Shown piece after piece: positions 1-12,140 of a stretch of DNA of 17,036 bases (positions within the stretch are counted from its first letter, which is position 1; every line of letters starts with the position of its first letter). Source of the DNA: Deinococcaceae bacterium (lineage in GTDB: Bacteria; Deinococcota; Deinococci; Deinococcales; Trueperaceae). The notes below the pieces were generated by a model that ran no database searches, was not told the DNA's origin, and saw nothing but the letters and a program-made list of their open reading frames with translations. The translations under genes were made by a program, and so were the position numbers. The stretch lies in the NCBI GenBank assembly GCA_040256005.1, contig JBDZWC010000003.1:1-17036 (forward strand). The letters are read 5' to 3'.

Positions 1-1284
1 GCTGCGGCCGACACTGGCGTGAACGGAGCGGTGGCCGGCCTCGCTATCGGACTCGGAGCGCTGGTACTGCTCGTCTCGATCGCCCTGCCACTGGTGCTAC
101 CCGAGTACCGGTTCCCGCCGCCCAGCGGTCCCCACGCCATCGGCACGGTCACGTACCACTGGGTAGACGACGGGCGAACCGAGCTGTTCACTACCGATCC
201 CGAGGACAGGCGGGAGCTGATGGTCCAGGTCTGGTACCCGGCCATCCCACGCGAAGACGCCCCGCGCGCTCCTTACATGCGGGACGCGGGGGCGTTGACC
301 ACCTGGGTCGCCTGGCTCCTGCATGTCAACCTGCCGGACTGGCTCTCGGGTCGCCTCACCTCGGTGACCACCAACGCGGTCGCCGGTGCCCCAGTGGCGA
401 CCGTCGAGCCGCGCTACCCGGTCGTCGTCTTCCTCGAGGGGCTCTCCGGCTTCAGGCAGATGAACACCTACCAGGTCGAGGAGCTCGTCTCGCACGGCTA
501 CGTCGTCGTGGCCCTGGACCAGCCCTACACCGCGGCCTCGCTGACCTTCCCGGACGGGCGGCGCGTCACGGGCATCAGTAAGGAAGAGATCTGGCCGGCC
601 ATCCTGCAGAGCATCCGTCGCAGCGACCCTGCACCGGTGCTGAGGGGCCGAACGCTCGAGGACGGGATCATCCCGTACCTAGCGCGCGACGCGTCGTTCG
701 CTCTGGACAGACTTGAGAACGTCAACCGCGCGGACCCTGAGGGCGTCCTCACCGGCGCGCTCGATCTTGGTCGGGTAGGTCTGATCGGCGTGTCCCTGGG
801 TGCGATCGTGGGCCCGGAAGCGTGCCACCTAGACGAGAGGCTGGGCGCGTGCATGTTCATGGAGGCGCCGGTGACCGCGGACGTCATCGCAGCAGGGTTG
901 GAGCAACCCACCTTCCTGCAGCTGGCTGACGACGAGTCACTGCGCCTGGCCGGTTGGTCGGAGGCGGACATCGACCTGCACCGCGAGACGATGCGCTCCC
1001 TGTACACGAACCTGGCCGGCGACGGCTACTTCCTATCCACGCACGGCACCTTCCACCTGAACCTCACCGACGCCCCGCTCCTCCTCCGTATCCCGTTGCG
1101 GGTGCTGGGCCTGCTGGGTCCCATCGACGTCGCTCGGGCGCACGGGATCATCAAGGCCTACACCGTGGCCTTCTTCGATAGGTACCTGAGGGGTTCTCCC
1201 GCGCCGCTCCTCGACGAGAGGCAGGCGTTCGCGGAGGCGGTCCTGGAGTCGCGCGCGGGGTCCCCTCAAGCTGCCCGGCGCTGA
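1..1284 (+). CDS. PAF-acetylhydrolase-like alpha/beta hydrolase with N-terminal membrane anchor (probably 5'-partial)
   Basis: Frame open from base 1 (first GTG at 19). Motifs PSGPHAIG, RELMVQVWYPA, EELVSHGYVVVALD, nucleophile GVSLG (Ser codon 793-795), His in GTFHLNLTD, C-terminal AFFDRYL. Confidence 0.85.
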   Translation, partial: AAADTGVNGAVAGLAIGLGALVLLVSIALPLVLPEYRFPPPSGPHAIGTVTYHWVDDGRTELFTTDPEDRRELMVQVWYPAIPREDAPRAPYMRDAGALTTWVAWLLHVNLPDWLSGRLTSVTTNAVAGAPVATVEPRYPVVVFLEGLSGFRQMNTYQVEELVSHGYVVVALDQPYTAASLTFPDGRRVTGISKEEIWPAILQSIRRSDPAPVLRGRTLEDGIIPYLARDASFALDRLENVNRADPEGVLTGALDLGRVGLIGVSLGAIVGPEACHLDERLGACMFMEAPVTADVIAAGLEQPTFLQLADDESLRLAGWSEADIDLHRETMRSLYTNLAGDGYFLSTHGTFHLNLTDAPLLLRIPLRVLGLLGPIDVARAHGIIKAYTVAFFDRYLRGSPAPLLDERQAFAEAVLESRAGSPQAARR

Positions 1285-2183
1285 GCCTCTCGACGCCGCG
1301 CCCTGGCTCCAGTGAGCTGAACCACGAGGGTGCCCGCCGTGGCCAGCAGCAGCCCGATGATCTGCCGTACACCTAGCCCTTCGCCGAGGAAGACCCACGC
1401 CAGGACGGCGATCTGGACCAGCATCGTGTTGTTGATGACGCTCGACTCCAGCGCGGACAACTTCCTCAGCGTGAGGTTCCAGAACGTGAAGGCGAAGGCC
1501 GTGTTCACGACGGCGAGCCATGCCACGATCGCCCACCCGCGCAGCGAGAGGACGGGCAACCCTTGCGTGCCCATGCCCACCCCCAGCAGGACGACGGAGC
1601 CCACCCCCATGCTGATCAGCGTCACGGTCGCGGCGGGAAGGGATGTCGACCTGTTGACGTGCCTGCCCAGCACCGCCGCTCCTGCGTTCGCCAGGAGACC
1701 GGCGACCGCGATGACCAGGCCCACGACCTGACCTGGCGGGAAGGAGGCGGGGTACAGGAAGGTGACCGCTCCGATCAGGAACAGGATCACCCCCAGGAAC
1801 TGGAGTGGCGCGGGGCGCTCACGCAGCGCCGCCATGCCGAGGAAGGCGACGGCGACGGGGGAGAAGCTGAGGACGAGGCTGGTCGTCTGGGCGGGCAGGC
1901 GGTCGAGGGCCAGGAACTGCGCTCCCTGCGTGAGCGTGTACATGACCAGGCCCAGCGTTACAAGCAGCAGCCATTCACCGCGGGAGAGCGTCCTCACCGC
2001 GCGTCTGACGTCTATGCGCAGCAGTAGCGGCAGCAGGACCAGGAACGCCAGGCCGTAGCGCAGCCCAGCGAAGGTAAGCGCCGGGATCTCCTCGAGGCCG
2101 ATCTTGATGAAGACCCAAGACGTCGACCACAGGAAGGTGACGAACAGGGCCTGCAGCATGGCACGGACATGGGACGAAGGCAT
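1266..2183 (-). CDS. EamA/DMT family transporter (two EamA repeats, about 10 TM)
   Basis: Hydrophobic protein with LWSTSWVFIKIGL, P-x2-FAGLRY and WVFLGE motifs. Start set at ATG 2183, just after AGGAGG. Overlaps the convergent hydrolase by 19 bp. Confidence 0.9.
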   Translation of the reverse strand: MPSSHVRAMLQALFVTFLWSTSWVFIKIGLEEIPALTFAGLRYGLAFLVLLPLLLRIDVRRAVRTLSRGEWLLLVTLGLVMYTLTQGAQFLALDRLPAQTTSLVLSFSPVAVAFLGMAALRERPAPLQFLGVILFLIGAVTFLYPASFPPGQVVGLVIAVAGLLANAGAAVLGRHVNRSTSLPAATVTLISMGVGSVVLLGVGMGTQGLPVLSLRGWAIVAWLAVVNTAFAFTFWNLTLRKLSALESSVINNTMLVQIAVLAWVFLGEGLGVRQIIGLLLATAGTLVVQLTGARARRREAQRRAA

Positions 2184-2201
2184 GCTCCTCCTAAGACGTG
2201 A

Positions 2202-2224
2202 CGGCACACCGCTGCGGCGTGCCG
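2202..2224 (-). promoter_or_regulatory. Hairpin in the riboswitch expression platform
   Basis: CGGCACGCCG-CAG-CGGUGUGCCG, 10 bp including one G-U, between aptamer and RBS. No U-tract follows. Confidence 0.55.
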
Positions 2225-2346
2225 ACCTGTCTCCTCGAGGCTTCTATCCCGTCAGATGCTGCCCGTTTCCGGGGTCACGCGGCGCTCGGTCCAGGCCCGC
2301 GTTCGTGCGGTAGTCGCGGCGGAACCCTAGCCACCATCATCGGTCG
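2223..2346 (-). ncRNA. ykkC-family riboswitch aptamer (guanidine-I-like fold, variant/subtype-2-like; ligand uncertain)
   Basis: Minus strand reads GGCUAGGGUUCCG-CCGCG..CGCGG-GCCUGGACCGAGCGCCGC, P2 CCCG-GAAA-CGGG, then CGGGAUAGAAGCCUCGAGGAG. All ykkC blocks are in order, in the 5' UTR of a transporter. Confidence 0.88.
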
Positions 2347-2353
2347 CGCCGCG

Positions 2354-2362
2354 AGTGTACCA
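2354..2362 (-). promoter_or_regulatory. Extended -10 promoter (TGgTACACT) for the riboswitch-EamA transcript
   Basis: TGnTAnnnT match; predicted TSS near 2347, at the 5' end of the aptamer. Confidence 0.65.
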
Positions 2363-2384: not shown

Positions 2385-2993
2385 TCAGTCGGCGAGCCAC
2401 TCGATGACCTTGCCGCGGGACCAGCAGCGACCCACCGCCTCGATGCGCAGCTTCGAGCGGCTGAGTAAGGCGACGCCGATGATGCTATGGCCAGAGGCGC
2501 GCCGGTCCCCGAGCGTCGGCACGCCTGGAGCGACACCGACGCCCTCGATGGAGACCCATGCGACGGTCCTGCGCGCGGCTGCGTCCTGGAGCGAGTCGAG
2601 GAACCGCAGCCGGTCCTCGCGCTCGAGACGCGACAACGCCCAAGCGGTGATGACGACAGGGAGAGCCGCTTCGGGTACCTCTGCGAGGCTGCTGGGAAGG
2701 CGATCCACGGAGGCGGCGGTGAGCTTGGCGCCGATCGTCGGCAGGTCTCGGTCGGGCACCGTGCGGTCCCCGACCACCCGGCACGTCAGCTGGATCGCTG
2801 CTTCCATGTCCCCGCGTCGGGCGCCGTCGCTGTAGGTGACGCCCACGGAGCCGAGCTCCAGGTTCATGCCCGGCGTCTGCGTGAGGTCCACGAGGCCGAC
2901 GGACTTGGCGCCTGCCCTGAACGCGGCCTCCGCAACGGCCGCATGGAGGACCGCCAGATGGCTGGTCTGCTCGGGGTCTAGGGCTCTGCTCAT
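2385..2993 (-). CDS. DUF2332-like protein, shortened/degenerate
   Basis: VGLVDLTQTPGMNL resembles the LLEIGASAGLNL motif; PVVITAWALSRL and WVSIEG resemble the C-terminal part. GAGG RBS upstream. Only 202 aa. Confidence 0.55.
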   Translation of the reverse strand: MSRALDPEQTSHLAVLHAAVAEAAFRAGAKSVGLVDLTQTPGMNLELGSVGVTYSDGARRGDMEAAIQLTCRVVGDRTVPDRDLPTIGAKLTAASVDRLPSSLAEVPEAALPVVITAWALSRLEREDRLRFLDSLQDAAARRTVAWVSIEGVGVAPGVPTLGDRRASGHSIIGVALLSRSKLRIEAVGRCWSRGKVIEWLAD

Positions 2994-8913: not shown

Positions 8914-9801
8914 TCAGCGCTGGGCCGCGACGTCCTCCGGCGTCACCAAGGGCGCGTCGTTGCCGAAGCTGGTGCGCTCGTGGTTGACCACGGCGGCGAT
9001 CTGCTCGTCGGTCAACAGGTCAGCGAAGGCTGGCATGGGGGAGACGTACGCCACGCCGCCGATCTCCTTGCCCTGAAGGCCGTGCAGAACGATGTCTATG
9101 TGCTCCGTCGGGTCGTCGGCTGTCACGACAGGATCACCTGCCAGGGGCGGGAACACGCCCGGCAAGCCCTTGCCGTCGCCTTGGTGGCAGCGCGCGCAGT
9201 TGGTGCCGTACACCGCAGCTCCCAGCTCCCTGTCGAAGTCGATGGCGCCCGCCTGTGCCGTGTCGGCGGAGCCGTCCGCTGCGCCCGTCGCGGACACGTC
9301 GCCGGACGTGGCGGCGCCAGCGGCCGGTGGGGCAGCCGCGACCGCCCCCGCCTCGGCCCGACCCGTCGCCGCGAGGACCTCGGGCGGCGGGTTCCAGTGC
9401 TGGACGCCGTAGTACAGGCCGTACGCCACCAGGAGGATCACGAGGACCCAGGCCCACGTGGGAGCGGGCGAAGGGGTCTCGGCTCGGGAGGGTTCCCACT
9501 TGCTCTCGACGGCGCCGCCGAACGAGTTGACGAGCACCGGCACCGTGCCCTCGAGCACGTCGTCTTCCCTCAGCCCGCTGACGGCGATGCCTGGTCCGTT
9601 GCGCACGGTGAAGGTCATCGTCTTCACGCCCTTGGTGCCGTTGGAGTCGTAGGCCTCGATGCGTAGCGTGTGGCGGCCGTCCGCCAACTGGGTGGTGTCC
9701 AGCTCGAACCGTAGGGGAGGGCTGTAGCTGGCCAGCGGCGTCGGGTCGTCGTCCAGGAAGACGTCTATGCGGTTGCTATGAGGGTTCGCTACTGCCTCCA
9801 T
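8914..9801 (-). CDS. Monoheme cytochrome c with N-terminal Ig-like domain and central TM helix
   Basis: CARCH heme motif, PGVFPPLAG, Met ligand in SPMPAF. N-terminal LDTTQLADGRHTLRIEAYD is Big/Ig-like. ATG 9801 with GAGG RBS. Confidence 0.85.
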   Translation of the reverse strand: MEAVANPHSNRIDVFLDDDPTPLASYSPPLRFELDTTQLADGRHTLRIEAYDSNGTKGVKTMTFTVRNGPGIAVSGLREDDVLEGTVPVLVNSFGGAVESKWEPSRAETPSPAPTWAWVLVILLVAYGLYYGVQHWNPPPEVLAATGRAEAGAVAAAPPAAGAATSGDVSATGAADGSADTAQAGAIDFDRELGAAVYGTNCARCHQGDGKGLPGVFPPLAGDPVVTADDPTEHIDIVLHGLQGKEIGGVAYVSPMPAFADLLTDEQIAAVVNHERTSFGNDAPLVTPEDVAAQR

Positions 9802-9802
9802 G

Positions 9803-10033
9803 TCAGCCTCGCTCCTCGAGGATGCGTCGCTTGATGTGGTCGGGGGAGGCCTCACGCGGGCGCAGCACGTGGTCGATGGCGAAGTAGATGACGTACGCGA
9901 CTATCACCGCACCCACGCCCGCGATCGCGTAGTCGAGCCAGCCCGACGGTGACGCGTGATGTCCCTCGGTGGCGGTGGCGAAGTCCGCCGCCTTGGTCGC
10001 CAGGGTCTGTGCGAAGGCCACGACGTACGTCAA
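9803..10033 (-). CDS. Small single-TM protein in oxidase operon (CcoQ-position)
   Basis: TTG start overlaps the ccoO-like stop (TTGA); stop lies 1 nt before the cytochrome c start. One hydrophobic helix followed by PREASPDHIKRRIL. Confidence 0.65.
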   Translation of the reverse strand: MTYVVAFAQTLATKAADFATATEGHHASPSGWLDYAIAGVGAVIVAYVIYFAIDHVLRPREASPDHIKRRILEERG

Positions 10034-10668
10034 TGCCCTGCTCCCCCCTCGCCATGGTCGGCCGTGGTGGAGACGACCAGGGGCGCCTGCTTCAAAGAGA
10101 GGAGGTACGCCACCAGTGCCTCGCCATCTGGGGTGGGCACGACCTGGCCGGCCGCCGGGGCGAATGCGCCCGTCACGGGAACCACCACGTCGTCGGCGCC
10201 TGCCTGTTCCACCACCTCGAAGAGCCAGGGGTAGGCGGGCATCACGGAGTCGGGCACGACCATGCGAGGGTTGTAGAGGTGCATGTACTGCCAGGTCTCG
10301 CTGGCCTGGCGCGCGCCCACGTTCGTCAGGTCGGGTCCCGTGCGAGAGGAGCCCAGTAGCGCCGGCGCGTAGGGGCTGAGGGGCCCGAGGGGCTCTACAT
10401 GAGCGTAGTCGCCCGGCACGGCGGCCCGTCCCCAGACCTCGTCCATCTCGAGGGGGCGTACCTGCTGCGTGTGGCAGGCGACGCAGCCCTCCGCGATGTA
10501 GACGCCCAGGCCCCGCTTCTCGATCTCGGTCATGGGCGTCGTGTTCGGCAGCGGGCGCATGCTGTTCTCGACGCCGATGGCGGGAGCCACCGCGATGATC
10601 ATCGAGAGCGCTATGAAGCCGAAGAAGATGACGGAGAACAGGAGCCGGTGGTTGCTGTGCATGTTCAT
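10030..10668 (-). CDS. ccoO: cbb3-type cytochrome c oxidase subunit II-like (monoheme c)
   Basis: N-terminal TM, YIAEGCVACHTQQVRP, GSSRTGPDL, SVMPAYPWL. ATGA overlap with the ccoN-like stop. Confidence 0.88.
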   Translation of the reverse strand: MNMHSNHRLLFSVIFFGFIALSMIIAVAPAIGVENSMRPLPNTTPMTEIEKRGLGVYIAEGCVACHTQQVRPLEMDEVWGRAAVPGDYAHVEPLGPLSPYAPALLGSSRTGPDLTNVGARQASETWQYMHLYNPRMVVPDSVMPAYPWLFEVVEQAGADDVVVPVTGAFAPAAGQVVPTPDGEALVAYLLSLKQAPLVVSTTADHGEGGAGH

Positions 10669-12140
10669 GACAGCGCCTGCGCCGCCGCGACCGGCGCCTG
10701 CGCCGGGGCAGGGGCCGTCGCCGGGCGCATGGTCCAGAGGTTGTAGGCGAACACGAGATGCGACAGGAACATCAGGCTGCCGCCCACGGCGCGCCACAGC
10801 CAGAACGGCACCATCGTGTTGACGCTCTCGATGAACGGGGCGCCGGACAGCCAGCTCATGCCCTGCATGGTCCCGCCGATCATCAGTGCCGTGCCGTAGA
10901 AGGCCAGGCCGACGAGCGCGAACCAGAAGTGGACACCGACCAGCAGGGCCCTGGGCTCGCGTCCGGTGATCATCGGCACCAGGCCGTAGACGCCGCCCCA
11001 GATCAGGAACGCGACGAAGCCGTACATGGTCAGGTGGCTGTGCGCCACGGTGAAGTTGGTGAAGTGCCAGACGAGGTTCAAGGTCCTCAGCGCCTCTAGG
11101 GACCCCTGAGCCGACCAGAAGAAGTAGGCCAGCACCCCAGCCAGGATGAACGGCAGCGAGTAGCTGCGGGCGACCGTGCGGAAGCTGCCGCGCATCGTCA
11201 GCAGGAAGTTGCCGGTACCGGCTGCCAGCGTCACGAGCATGCCTACGCTGAAGATGATGGCCACCGTCTGGATCCACCACGGCGTGGGCGCGAACACGAA
11301 ATGGTGCGCGCCGATCATCGTGTAGAAGACCATCTGGGTCCAGAAGGCCAGCACCCCGAGCGAGTACGAGTAGATGGGCTTGTTGAGCAGCTTGGGGAGG
11401 AAGTAGTACGTCAGCCCCAGTGCCAGCGGCGTGAACCACATGCCCACGCCCATGTGCATGTAGTAGCCCTGGATCACCGACTCGCTGATCGGGTTGGTCT
11501 GGTAGAAGGGCAGGTAGGCGATAACCAGCACGACCGCCGTCCACAGGAAGGCGGCGACGATGTACCAGTTCGAGATGTAGATCTCCTCGACGTCGCGCTT
11601 GGCGATCGTCTGGATGAGGTTGTAAGCGACGAGGATCGCCCCGAGCGCGAACACCGCCTGCACCGGCCACACGTACTCGCGGTACTCCTGACCGCCGTTG
11701 TTGATGCCGGACATGAGCAAGATGTCGCCGACCACGACGGCGACGTTTATGAGCACCAGGCTGGTCCACGCCAGCGGGATCGAGAACAGACGCCGGTTGC
11801 TGGTCTTGGGGACCACGTAGAGCGCGAGCGCGATGAGCGCAAGCGACGACCAGCCCCAGAACACGGTGTTGGTGTGGACAGGCCGCAGCCGACCGTACGA
11901 GAGCCAGGGCAGGTGGTCCATATCGGGCGAGGAGAACTTGATCCCCAGGTACTCGCCGATGAACGTGCCGATCACCAACCAGGCCGCGGCGCAGGCCAGG
12001 TACGCGAAGATCAGCCTCGTCGCCCCGGTGTCCCGGTCGGCAACCGGGTTGAGCCGCGCCTTGGTCACGGCGAGGGGTCGGCTATGGTCGCCCGTACGCG
12101 CCTTGCCGTTCCCCGCGACGCTCGCGCTATCGCCTGTCAT
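10665..12140 (-). CDS. ccoN: cbb3-type (C-family) heme-copper oxidase subunit I-like, divergent
   Basis: RLRPVHTN, EYREY..WP, YYMHMGVG, PIYSY, FYTMIGAHH (Tyr-x5-HH), VAHSH: six His ligands plus the helix VII Tyr. GGAGA RBS. Confidence 0.88.
   Translation of the reverse strand: MTGDSASVAGNGKARTGDHSRPLAVTKARLNPVADRDTGATRLIFAYLACAAAWLVIGTFIGEYLGIKFSSPDMDHLPWLSYGRLRPVHTNTVFWGWSSLALIALALYVVPKTSNRRLFSIPLAWTSLVLINVAVVVGDILLMSGINNGGQEYREYVWPVQAVFALGAILVAYNLIQTIAKRDVEEIYISNWYIVAAFLWTAVVLVIAYLPFYQTNPISESVIQGYYMHMGVGMWFTPLALGLTYYFLPKLLNKPIYSYSLGVLAFWTQMVFYTMIGAHHFVFAPTPWWIQTVAIIFSVGMLVTLAAGTGNFLLTMRGSFRTVARSYSLPFILAGVLAYFFWSAQGSLEALRTLNLVWHFTNFTVAHSHLTMYGFVAFLIWGGVYGLVPMITGREPRALLVGVHFWFALVGLAFYGTALMIGGTMQGMSWLSGAPFIESVNTMVPFWLWRAVGGSLMFLSHLVFAYNLWTMRPATAPAPAQAPVAAAQALS

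What the first reader, a model, noticed from the sequence alone, without database searches (positions are those of the whole stretch)
2183..2362. Variant ykkC riboswitch controlling an EamA/DMT transporter: candidate altered-ligand sensor and transporter pair
Seen: extended -10, then CUAGGGUUCCG, stem CCGCG/CGCGG, CUGGACCGAGCG, P1 GUGGC/GCCGC, a GAAA-capped P2, CGGG-AUAGAAG-CCUCG and AGGAG, then a hairpin, RBS and the EamA gene. Known: ykkC RNAs include guanidine-I, ppGpp (2a), PRPP (2b), nucleoside diphosphate (2c) and transporter-associated 2d subtypes. From recalled consensus sequences, this copy is a mosaic: GACCGAGCG has C where guanidine-I has GUCCGAGAG, the AUAGAAG loop is PRPP-like, the GGAG tail is guanidine-like, and P3 is lengthened with a UCU/AGA pairing. 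Inference: the ligand may not be guanidine, and it would point to the substrate of this transporter. The downstream gene is not an SMR/Gdx, purine-synthesis or BCAA gene.
Basis: partly seen in the sequence, partly recalled or inferred. Interest (0 to 1): 0.85.

Follow-up and report, generated by a model that had tools for sequence, protein, structure and literature searches.

The report
Orphan ykkC riboswitch before EamA exporter
This is a real, conserved RNA switch that probably turns on a membrane exporter when it binds a still-unknown small molecule other than guanidine; it fits an already described orphan riboswitch class but carries an extra helix not described for that class in the papers read.

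Summary
The element is real and lies on the minus strand (about 2347 to 2223), upstream of an EamA gene (2183-1266). It scores 40.8 bits on Rfam Guanidine-I (E 2e-4, below the 63-bit cut-off) and precedes 42 of 80 homologues of this transporter, with compensatory pairing throughout. It is not guanidine-I: two pocket purines are pyrimidines (C49, C78), and the genome has a separate guanidine-III/sugE unit. It is also not a one-off mosaic: the 'PRPP-like loop', 'guanidine-like tail' and UCU/AGA pairing fail against the alignment. Its core is closest to aptamers before phn_DUF6-like EamA and TauE genes, the published hallmark of orphan subtype 2d. The aptamer's 3' strand alternatively pairs with the ribosome-binding site (terminators in many relatives), so it is probably an ON switch. 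Best guess for the ligand: a small Mg-bridged phosphate-bearing or other oxyanion metabolite (about 0.45). The published 2d alignment could not be seen. This scan reported a similar 2d-type RNA before on other DNA (e1-6706065).

The parts
2354..2362 (-). Extended -10 promoter element (TGnTAnnnT); predicted start site near 2347
   Evidence: Sequence. TAnnnT at about the same distance in 14 of 14 Trueperaceae-type leaders, TG in 10 of 14 (read). The consensus scanner, which needs a -35, found none. Start site inferred.
2342..2346 (-). P0 5' strand
   Evidence: RNAalifold on 36 homologues; 92.8% of cells paired, 3 of 5 pairs with compensatory change
2335..2341 (-). J0/1 linker; lacks the A5-G6 of PRPP/ppGpp aptamers
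   Evidence: AG at these positions in only 42 of 90 family members; the window has AU
2279..2334 (-). P1, P1a core and P1b; G48 at 2285, subtype marker C49 at 2284 (T. mathranii numbering)
   Evidence: Rfam alignment; P1 98.9% paired with 4 compensatory pairs; coordinates
2262..2273 (-). P2 hairpin with GAAA loop (variable in the family)
2232..2258 (-). P3: C75 2258, U77 2256, C78 2255, U79 2254, A-rich loop, G96 2236, A97 2235, G98 2234, G99 2233, A100 2232; pairs 77-100, 78-99, U79.G98, long-range C75-G96
   Evidence: Pair 77-100 is C-G in 19 and U-A in 17 of 36 rows; U-A 25, C-G 64, U-G 1 among 90. C75-G96 never varies in the alignment, so it rests on analogy with solved structures.
2223..2231 (-). 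J3/0 (4 nt) and P0 3' strand; tail in register with subtype 2c
   Evidence: 2c rows of the PMC9881157 supplement
2187..2223 (-). Expression platform: hairpin 2223-2203, anti-P3 strand 2197-2193, RBS 2192-2187, which pairs with 2240-2237 of P3 in the OFF fold
   Evidence: Folds; same RBS pairing in close relatives, terminators in many others
1266..2183 (-). EamA/DMT transporter, 305 aa, two EamA domains, ten-helix fold; not of the phn_DUF6 subfamily
   Evidence: PF00892 E 2e-40; TIGR00950 86 bits, below cut-off, no TIGR03340 hit at E<=0.01; model pLDDT 96; best fold matches LicB (7paf) and 5i20

Best explanation
The leader is a ykkC subtype-2 riboswitch of the orphan 2d class, in a long form that adds a 2c-like P0 helix. 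Transcription starts at the P0 strand (inferred). Without ligand, the 3' strand of P3/P0 pairs with the ribosome-binding site and the region before it, so translation is off (predicted folds; conserved in relatives). Ligand binding at the P1a/P3 interface holds P3 and P0, frees the site and turns on the EamA exporter (inferred from the ON logic of other ykkC classes). Because a short form without P0 controls the same phn_DUF6-like transporters, the specificity should lie in the shared core (G48, C49, C78, U79.G98, A97, C75-G96). In the PRPP structure G48, C49 and C78 hold a phosphate through a metal ion. The most likely ligand is therefore a small Mg-bridged phosphate-bearing or other oxyanion metabolite with no pyrophosphate, for example a nucleoside monophosphate, sugar phosphate, phosphonate or sulfonate. 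The exporter, which has no conserved charged residue in its helices, would remove it or its neutral product.
For: Shown: CM hit; 42 of 80 transporter homologues carry it (41 by seed, L085 dropped as spurious, plus L094); structure 96.2% paired, 14 compensatory pairs, 0 of 500 shuffles, slid controls 31-49%. Among the 41 loci found from the protein side: C49 41, G96 41, C75 39, A97 38 (read). An aptamer-side scan returned mostly EamA (two subfamilies) and TauE genes, plus a few NUDIX, HAD, thiC and purC. Window core identity 0.83 to the 49 short-form aptamers before phn_DUF6-like/TauE genes, 0.74 to five 2c aptamers; size-matched PSSM 68.5 vs 45.1; 69 of 90 family cores closer to the short form. 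A held-out long-form aptamer before a phn_DUF6-like gene scores 109.8 bits on the family model, the window 108.2. In L088 one aptamer precedes a window-type EamA coupled to a phn_DUF6-like EamA. RBS pairing or terminator in 58 of 92 long-form leaders. Literature.
Against: The published 2d consensus and alignment were not seen, and none of rows H1-H84 of the PMC9881157 table fitted 2d best, so membership rests on gene association and core similarity. The eLife text names extra 5'/3' conserved stretches for 2a-2c only, which this RNA has. The window's EamA is not phn_DUF6. On the whole-aptamer model 2c scores higher (66-78 bits) than the short form (mostly 55-61). With the aptamer forced, the RBS still pairs with the start of the coding region, and the ON fold costs 17.6 kcal/mol without tertiary or ligand energy. 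34 of 92 long-form leaders showed neither RBS pairing nor terminator by my crude criteria, median z -1.4. A charge-free transporter cavity does not suit an anion. No conserved neighbour gene points to a ligand.
Confidence: 0.7

Rival explanations
1. The long form is a separate, undescribed class between 2c and 2d: it uses P0 and the 2c-like tail to bind a nucleotide (NDP or NMP) and turns on an exporter where 2c turns on a hydrolase.
For: P3 and tail are in exact register with 2c; P0 of 5 bp or more in 79 of 89 and 12 of 13 long-form leaders and 5 of 5 2c leaders, but at shuffled level in the short form. C49 occurs in 2 of 5 2c-type aptamers, before NUDIX and HAD genes. Nine of 38 riboswitch-less homologues sit behind recJ (5), carB (2), purB (1) or a nucleoside hydrolase (1) (no control, few independent lineages).
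Against: Core closer to the short form. The 2c bulge (A80, U81a in 5 of 5) is not kept: A80 in 0 of 90. Both forms precede phn_DUF6-like genes. Position 77, a ligand contact in PRPP/ppGpp aptamers, is U in 26 of 90.
Confidence: 0.22
2. [quoted passage not shown]
For: Proposal in PMC5912903. The invariant U79.G98 wobble could keep a Hoogsteen edge free at the old guanidine site (inference). In L084 a guanidine-III/SMR unit lies back to back with this unit, and the close relative L019 has the SMR gene there too.
Against: The cation-pi floor G is C78 and the bulged A is C49. No conserved acidic residue in the transporter's helices. The SMR neighbour occurs in 3 of 246 loci, two of them the same place. 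TauE is annotated as a sulfite exporter.
Confidence: 0.2
3. A divergent guanidine-I riboswitch that still binds guanidine.
For: Only Rfam match is RF00442; G48 and the C75-G96 equivalent are kept.
Against: A38 and G67 equivalents are pyrimidines, the published subtype-2 signature; G67A cuts binding about 200-fold and A38G about 10-fold. The genome has a guanidine-III riboswitch above cut-off before a sugE gene. A true guanidine-I scores only 38.4 bits on the family model.
Confidence: 0.04
4. A ppGpp (2a) or PRPP (2b) riboswitch with an unusual gene.
For: C49 and a P0 are shared; C75-G96 is kept as in PRPP aptamers.
Against: G96 is kept, against ppGpp. A5/G6 are not conserved, G104/G105 equivalents are paired inside P0, 97 is A, 79-98 is a wobble. 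PRPP-type loci score 51-62 bits against 108.
Confidence: 0.04

Closest known systems
ykkC subtype 2d orphan riboswitch candidate (PMC7266159 passages; PMC5912903 introduction and passages)
   Same: ykkC fold, pyrimidine at the marker position, precedes EamA-type transporters; core nearly identical to aptamers found here before phn_DUF6-like and TauE genes.
   Different: Has a covarying P0, a conserved purine-rich tail and a start site about 12 nt before P1, features the eLife text lists for 2a-2c only; its transporter is a different EamA subfamily (no TIGR03340 hit). The published consensus figure was not seen.
ykkC subtype 2c, (d)ADP/(d)CDP riboswitch
   Same: Same P3 length, A97, U79.G98, four-base J3/0 and P0 register.
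   Different: 2c has an A-U/C-U bulge at 80-81a, mostly G49 (5 of 5 published rows seen, 3 of 5 here), a longer 5' leader, and NUDIX/HAD genes.
PRPP (2b) and ppGpp (2a) riboswitches (PMC6031431, parts 1-5 of 9 read)
   Same: C49, C78-G99, a P0 helix, ON logic; C75-G96 as in 2b.
   Different: No conserved A5/G6, G104/G105 equivalents paired in P0, A97, wobble at 79-98, extra tail base, no purine or BCAA genes.
Guanidine-I riboswitch (RF00442; PMC5340920 passages)
   Same: P1a core, A-rich P3 loop, long-range C-G pair, 3' strand competing with the expression platform.
   Different: Bulged A and cation-pi floor G replaced by C; P0 added; score below gathering cut-off; no SMR or carboxylase gene.
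EamA/DMT transporters (LicB, YddG-like 5i20)
   Same: Ten-helix DMT fold, TM-score 0.75-0.78.
   Different: 15-21% identity; no NCBIfam model reaches its cut-off; substrate unknown.

Membership tests
ykkC RNA fold | Significant covariance-model match with P1, P2, P3 | tested here: met
   RF00442 40.8 bits, E 2e-4, positions 1-107; covariation
Guanidine-I (subtype 1) | Rfam gathering score 63 | tested here: not met
   40.8 bits
Guanidine-I (subtype 1) | A at the bulge marker (A46/A38) | tested here: not met
   C at 2284; C in 89 of 90 family members, a position not fixed by my patterns
Guanidine-I (subtype 1) | G forming the cation-pi floor (G67/G72) | tested here: not met
   C78 at 2255
Guanidine-I (subtype 1) | G whose Hoogsteen edge binds guanidine (G85) | tested here: inconclusive
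   A97 by adjacency to the flipped G, but G98 by pairing register
ppGpp (2a) | Position 96 not G, leaving C75 for the ligand | tested here: not met
   G96 in the window and in 41 of 41 protein-anchored loci (read; criterion)
PRPP (2b) | C75-G96 pair | tested here: met
   (invariant, so no covariation support)
PRPP (2b) | A5/G6 and free G104/G105 for the pyrophosphate; purine-synthesis gene | tested here: not met
   AU in the window, AG in 42 of 90; GG paired in P0; EamA gene
(d)NDP (2c) | P0 and tail architecture, A97, U79.G98 | tested here: met
(d)NDP (2c) | A-U-U type bulge and G49; NUDIX/HAD gene | tested here: not met
   Window G80 A81 C81a and C49; features taken from five supplement rows and five loci, not from the published consensus
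Orphan subtype 2d | Pyrimidine at the marker position (subtype 2) | tested here: met
Orphan subtype 2d | Upstream of an EamA or TauE transporter | tested here: met
   PF00892; definition
Orphan subtype 2d | Transporter of the phn_DUF6 type | tested here: not met
   No TIGR03340 hit for the window gene; 13 long-form aptamers do precede phn_DUF6-like genes
Orphan subtype 2d | No conserved 5'/3' extension (as implied by the eLife text) | tested here: not met
   P0 with covariation; the short form shows none above control, at most a weak 4-bp pairing
Orphan subtype 2d | Match to the published 2d consensus or alignment | not testable with these tools
   PMC6713212 and PMC5360189 not held; figures not held
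Any riboswitch class | Ligand binding and gene control shown | not testable with these tools
   Needs in-line probing and reporters

The most novel reading that the evidence does not exclude
The P0-bearing aptamers before this EamA subfamily are a sixth ykkC class, distinct in ligand from both 2c and the short 2d form: a nucleotide-level sensor that turns on an uncharacterised nucleoside or nucleotide exporter in Trueperaceae, Chloroflexota, Acidobacteriota and Acidimicrobiia, and an evolutionary link between 2c and 2d.
Probability: 0.22. Interest if true: 0.72.

Novelty: new variant of a known kind. Interest (0 to 1): 0.42.

Why it matters
The ligand of subtype 2d was still open in every paper read (latest statements 2021-2023). 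This family narrows the search. One core pocket is used with and without P0 and controls at least three transporter types (two EamA subfamilies and TauE; a further variant precedes a YdcZ-type gene), so the ligand probably sits in the P1a/P3 site and is something cells want to export. The long form gives new constructs for probing: constructs that stop at P3 would lack its P0. Finding the ligand would name a substrate for an uncharacterised EamA subfamily. The basic pairing of a non-guanidine ykkC RNA with an EamA gene is already known.

Tried and rejected
UCU/AGA register of P3: rejected. PRPP-like register 77-99: 98.1% paired but no compensatory change, so less supported than 77-100. First metagenome pattern was miscounted and found 0. 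Viral scan: 101 matches, 60 distinct, nearly all chance; three looked real (L243, L247, L276). RF00442 over 150 Bacillota genomes gave only 2 reference aptamers; a family-level search gave 2; so subtype 1, 2a and 2b comparisons rest mainly on published positions and supplement rows read by eye. nhmmer scores were biased by set size and were replaced by size-matched scores. Neighbour genes: no conserved operon (147 proteins; 43 second ORFs inspected by eye only). An operon-versus-own-leader count misclassified several loci and is not used. RNA runs: only contigs; the two runs on record as RNA cover part of the coding region and not the leader: no evidence either way. P0 in the short form: first count was off by one column, corrected. 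A recalled report that 2d binds XMP and GMP was not found in searches or in passages; it remains an unverified lead, and subscription papers are not searched.

Full report
Observation. The only Rfam match in the window at E<=1 is Guanidine-I, 2341-2229, 40.8 bits, E 2e-4, below the cut-off of 63, and it is the only match in the genome. The closest homologues of the transporter come from Trueperaceae, then Chloroflexota, Acidobacteriota and others.

Conservation. Of the best 80 loci encoding a homologue (174 were confirmed), 42 had the 5' seed upstream. One, L085, was spurious; a covariance model built from 36 leaders added L094, so 42 of 80 carry the RNA. On the 36-row alignment the structure P0-P1-P1a-P1b-P3 is 96.2% paired with 14 compensatory pairs; 0 of 500 shuffles reached this and slid controls gave 31-49%. 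Relatedness inflates such counts, but the rows span several phyla. Rows were chosen by a pattern that fixed C75, A76, G96, G98 and G99, and the same holds, so for those positions I use the 41 protein-anchored loci read: C49 41, G96 41, C75 39, A97 38.

Numbering follows the T. mathranii PRPP aptamer (PMC6031431, parts 1-5 of 9 read). The lower P3 pairs are 77-100 (C-G in 19 rows, U-A in 17), C78-G99 and an invariant U79.G98. The proposed UCU/AGA register breaks its outer pair in 14 of 34 scored rows. The loop G called PRPP-like occurs in 4 of 36 rows. The copy is a typical member of a family, not a mosaic.

Not guanidine. The A38 and G67 positions of the D. dadantii structure, where subtype 2 has pyrimidines and where mutation cuts binding about 10- and 200-fold (PMC5340920, passages), are C49 and C78 here. 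The G85 equivalent is ambiguous (A97 or G98). The same genome has a guanidine-III riboswitch above cut-off before a sugE gene. G96 argues against ppGpp. The pyrophosphate contacts of PRPP aptamers are not kept: A5-G6 in 42 of 90, and the G104/G105 equivalents pair in P0.

Which subtype. Subtype 2d is published as an orphan class before EamA (phn_DUF6) and TauE transporters (PMC7266159, passages; PMC5912903, introduction and passages). Groups were assigned partly by hand from the tail, and loci without a classified gene were left out. The short form matches the published gene set and has no P0 above a shuffled control (a weak 4-bp pairing, 80% of cells, is not excluded). Its extended -10 ends 10-11 nt before P1 in 19 of 47 leaders, against 18-20 nt in 27 of 87 window-type leaders (most leaders had no such element). 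The window's core is closer to the short form than to 2c (identity 0.83 vs 0.74; size-matched score 68.5 vs 45.1), its tail closer to 2c (0.60 vs 0.31). Five 2c rows in the PMC9881157 supplement (rows H1-H84 of table S2 and part of S1 read) show the same tail register but G49 and an AUU bulge; no row seen fitted 2d best. The window's own transporter has no TIGR03340 hit, yet in L088 one long-form aptamer precedes a window-type gene coupled to a phn_DUF6-like gene. I read this as one ligand class, 2d, in two architectures. The paper with the 2d consensus was not held, so whether the long form is already in the published alignment is open; unseen figures and Stockholm supplements bear directly on this. 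L002 comes from a genome marked unpublished (G043); it is one of the 41 short-form rows and one of three phn_DUF6-like examples, and no conclusion depends on it.

Mechanism. In the free fold the P3 3' strand pairs with the ribosome-binding site (unpaired probability 0.01-0.03 for four of its six bases). Among 92 long-form leaders, 32 show this pairing, 28 a terminator whose 5' arm is the aptamer's 3' strand, 58 either; among 42 short-form leaders 30 show RBS pairing (part of that output was cut, totals were shown). This is ON logic, as published for other ykkC classes. Against: with the aptamer forced, the window's RBS still pairs with the first codons, and the ON fold is 17.6 kcal/mol less stable in a model without tertiary or ligand energy. 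The transporter is a ten-helix DMT whose conserved membrane residues are Trp, Tyr, Asn, Gln, Ser and Thr, with conserved charges only near helix ends (placement inferred from the helix list).

Ligand (inference). What both forms share is G48, C49, C78, U79.G98, A97 and C75-G96. In the PRPP structure G48, C49 and C78 bind the 5-phosphate and its metal. With the pyrophosphate site gone and TauE and phn_DUF6 annotated for sulfite and phosphonate contexts, a small Mg-bridged oxyanion or monophosphate is my best guess (0.45). A nucleotide sensed with P0 by a separate class (0.22) and a small guanidine-like cation as proposed in PMC5912903 (0.2) remain. Neighbour genes give no firm clue. A recalled assignment of XMP and GMP to 2d was not found in the searches made; papers read call 2d unsolved up to 2021-2023 (passages).

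Distribution. With the family model, 6 of 12 other Trueperaceae and 0 of 138 other Deinococcota genomes matched, and 6 of 151 genomes of the class of G102; only 22 candidates per genome were scored, so these are floors.

Verdict. Real riboswitch candidate, non-guanidine, most likely orphan subtype 2d in a P0-bearing form before a further EamA subfamily. Novelty: new variant of a known kind; interest 0.42.

Noticed in passing
L105:1484-1618 and L217 (minus strand): 2c-type aptamers (G49, AUU bulge) precede thiC (NCBIfam above cut-off), a gene not among the NUDIX/HAD associations in the papers read.
   Followed up: partly
L140:1484-1620 and L189:277-408: 2c-type aptamers with C49 instead of G49 before a NUDIX and a HAD-IIA hydrolase gene; position 49 alone does not separate 2c from 2d.
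   Followed up: partly
L010 and L007 (Trueperaceae genomes G045, G014): Further ykkC variants with altered P3 before small DMT genes; L010's is YdcZ-type (PF04657), L007's looks similar by eye.
   Followed up: partly
L088:1333-3338: One aptamer precedes a window-type EamA directly coupled to a phn_DUF6-like EamA.
   Followed up: yes
L084:13-669 and L019: A guanidine-III/SMR unit lies divergently next to the aptamer-EamA unit (Rfam hit in L084; SMR gene in both).
   Followed up: partly
L349:987-1378 (own genome, contig C134): Guanidine-III riboswitch before a sugE/gdx gene.
   Followed up: yes
L348 (own genome, contig C124 near 5305): A phn_DUF6-like EamA without a ykkC leader, directly behind a gene that looks like an aminotransferase by eye.
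   Followed up: no
window 2385-2993 (-): ORF matching only the C-terminal third of DUF2332; in L015, whose EamA is 95% identical, the epimerase gene lies directly before the leader, so this piece is absent there.
   Followed up: no
L247 and L276 (viral collection): Related aptamers with changed P3 before phn_DUF6-like EamA genes on viral-collection contigs; may be host DNA.
   Followed up: partly
L094:1326-1450 and L332: Degenerate copies before window-type EamA genes; L332 has A at position 49, L094 a changed 5' core.
   Followed up: no
L083, L033, L064, L068, L045, L067, L076, L087, L092: Riboswitch-less homologues lie behind a nucleoside hydrolase, purB, carB or recJ; no control was run.
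   Followed up: partly
window 8914-12140 (-): Cytochrome oxidase subunit I (PF00115) and cytochrome c genes, apparently a cbb3-like cluster.
   Followed up: no
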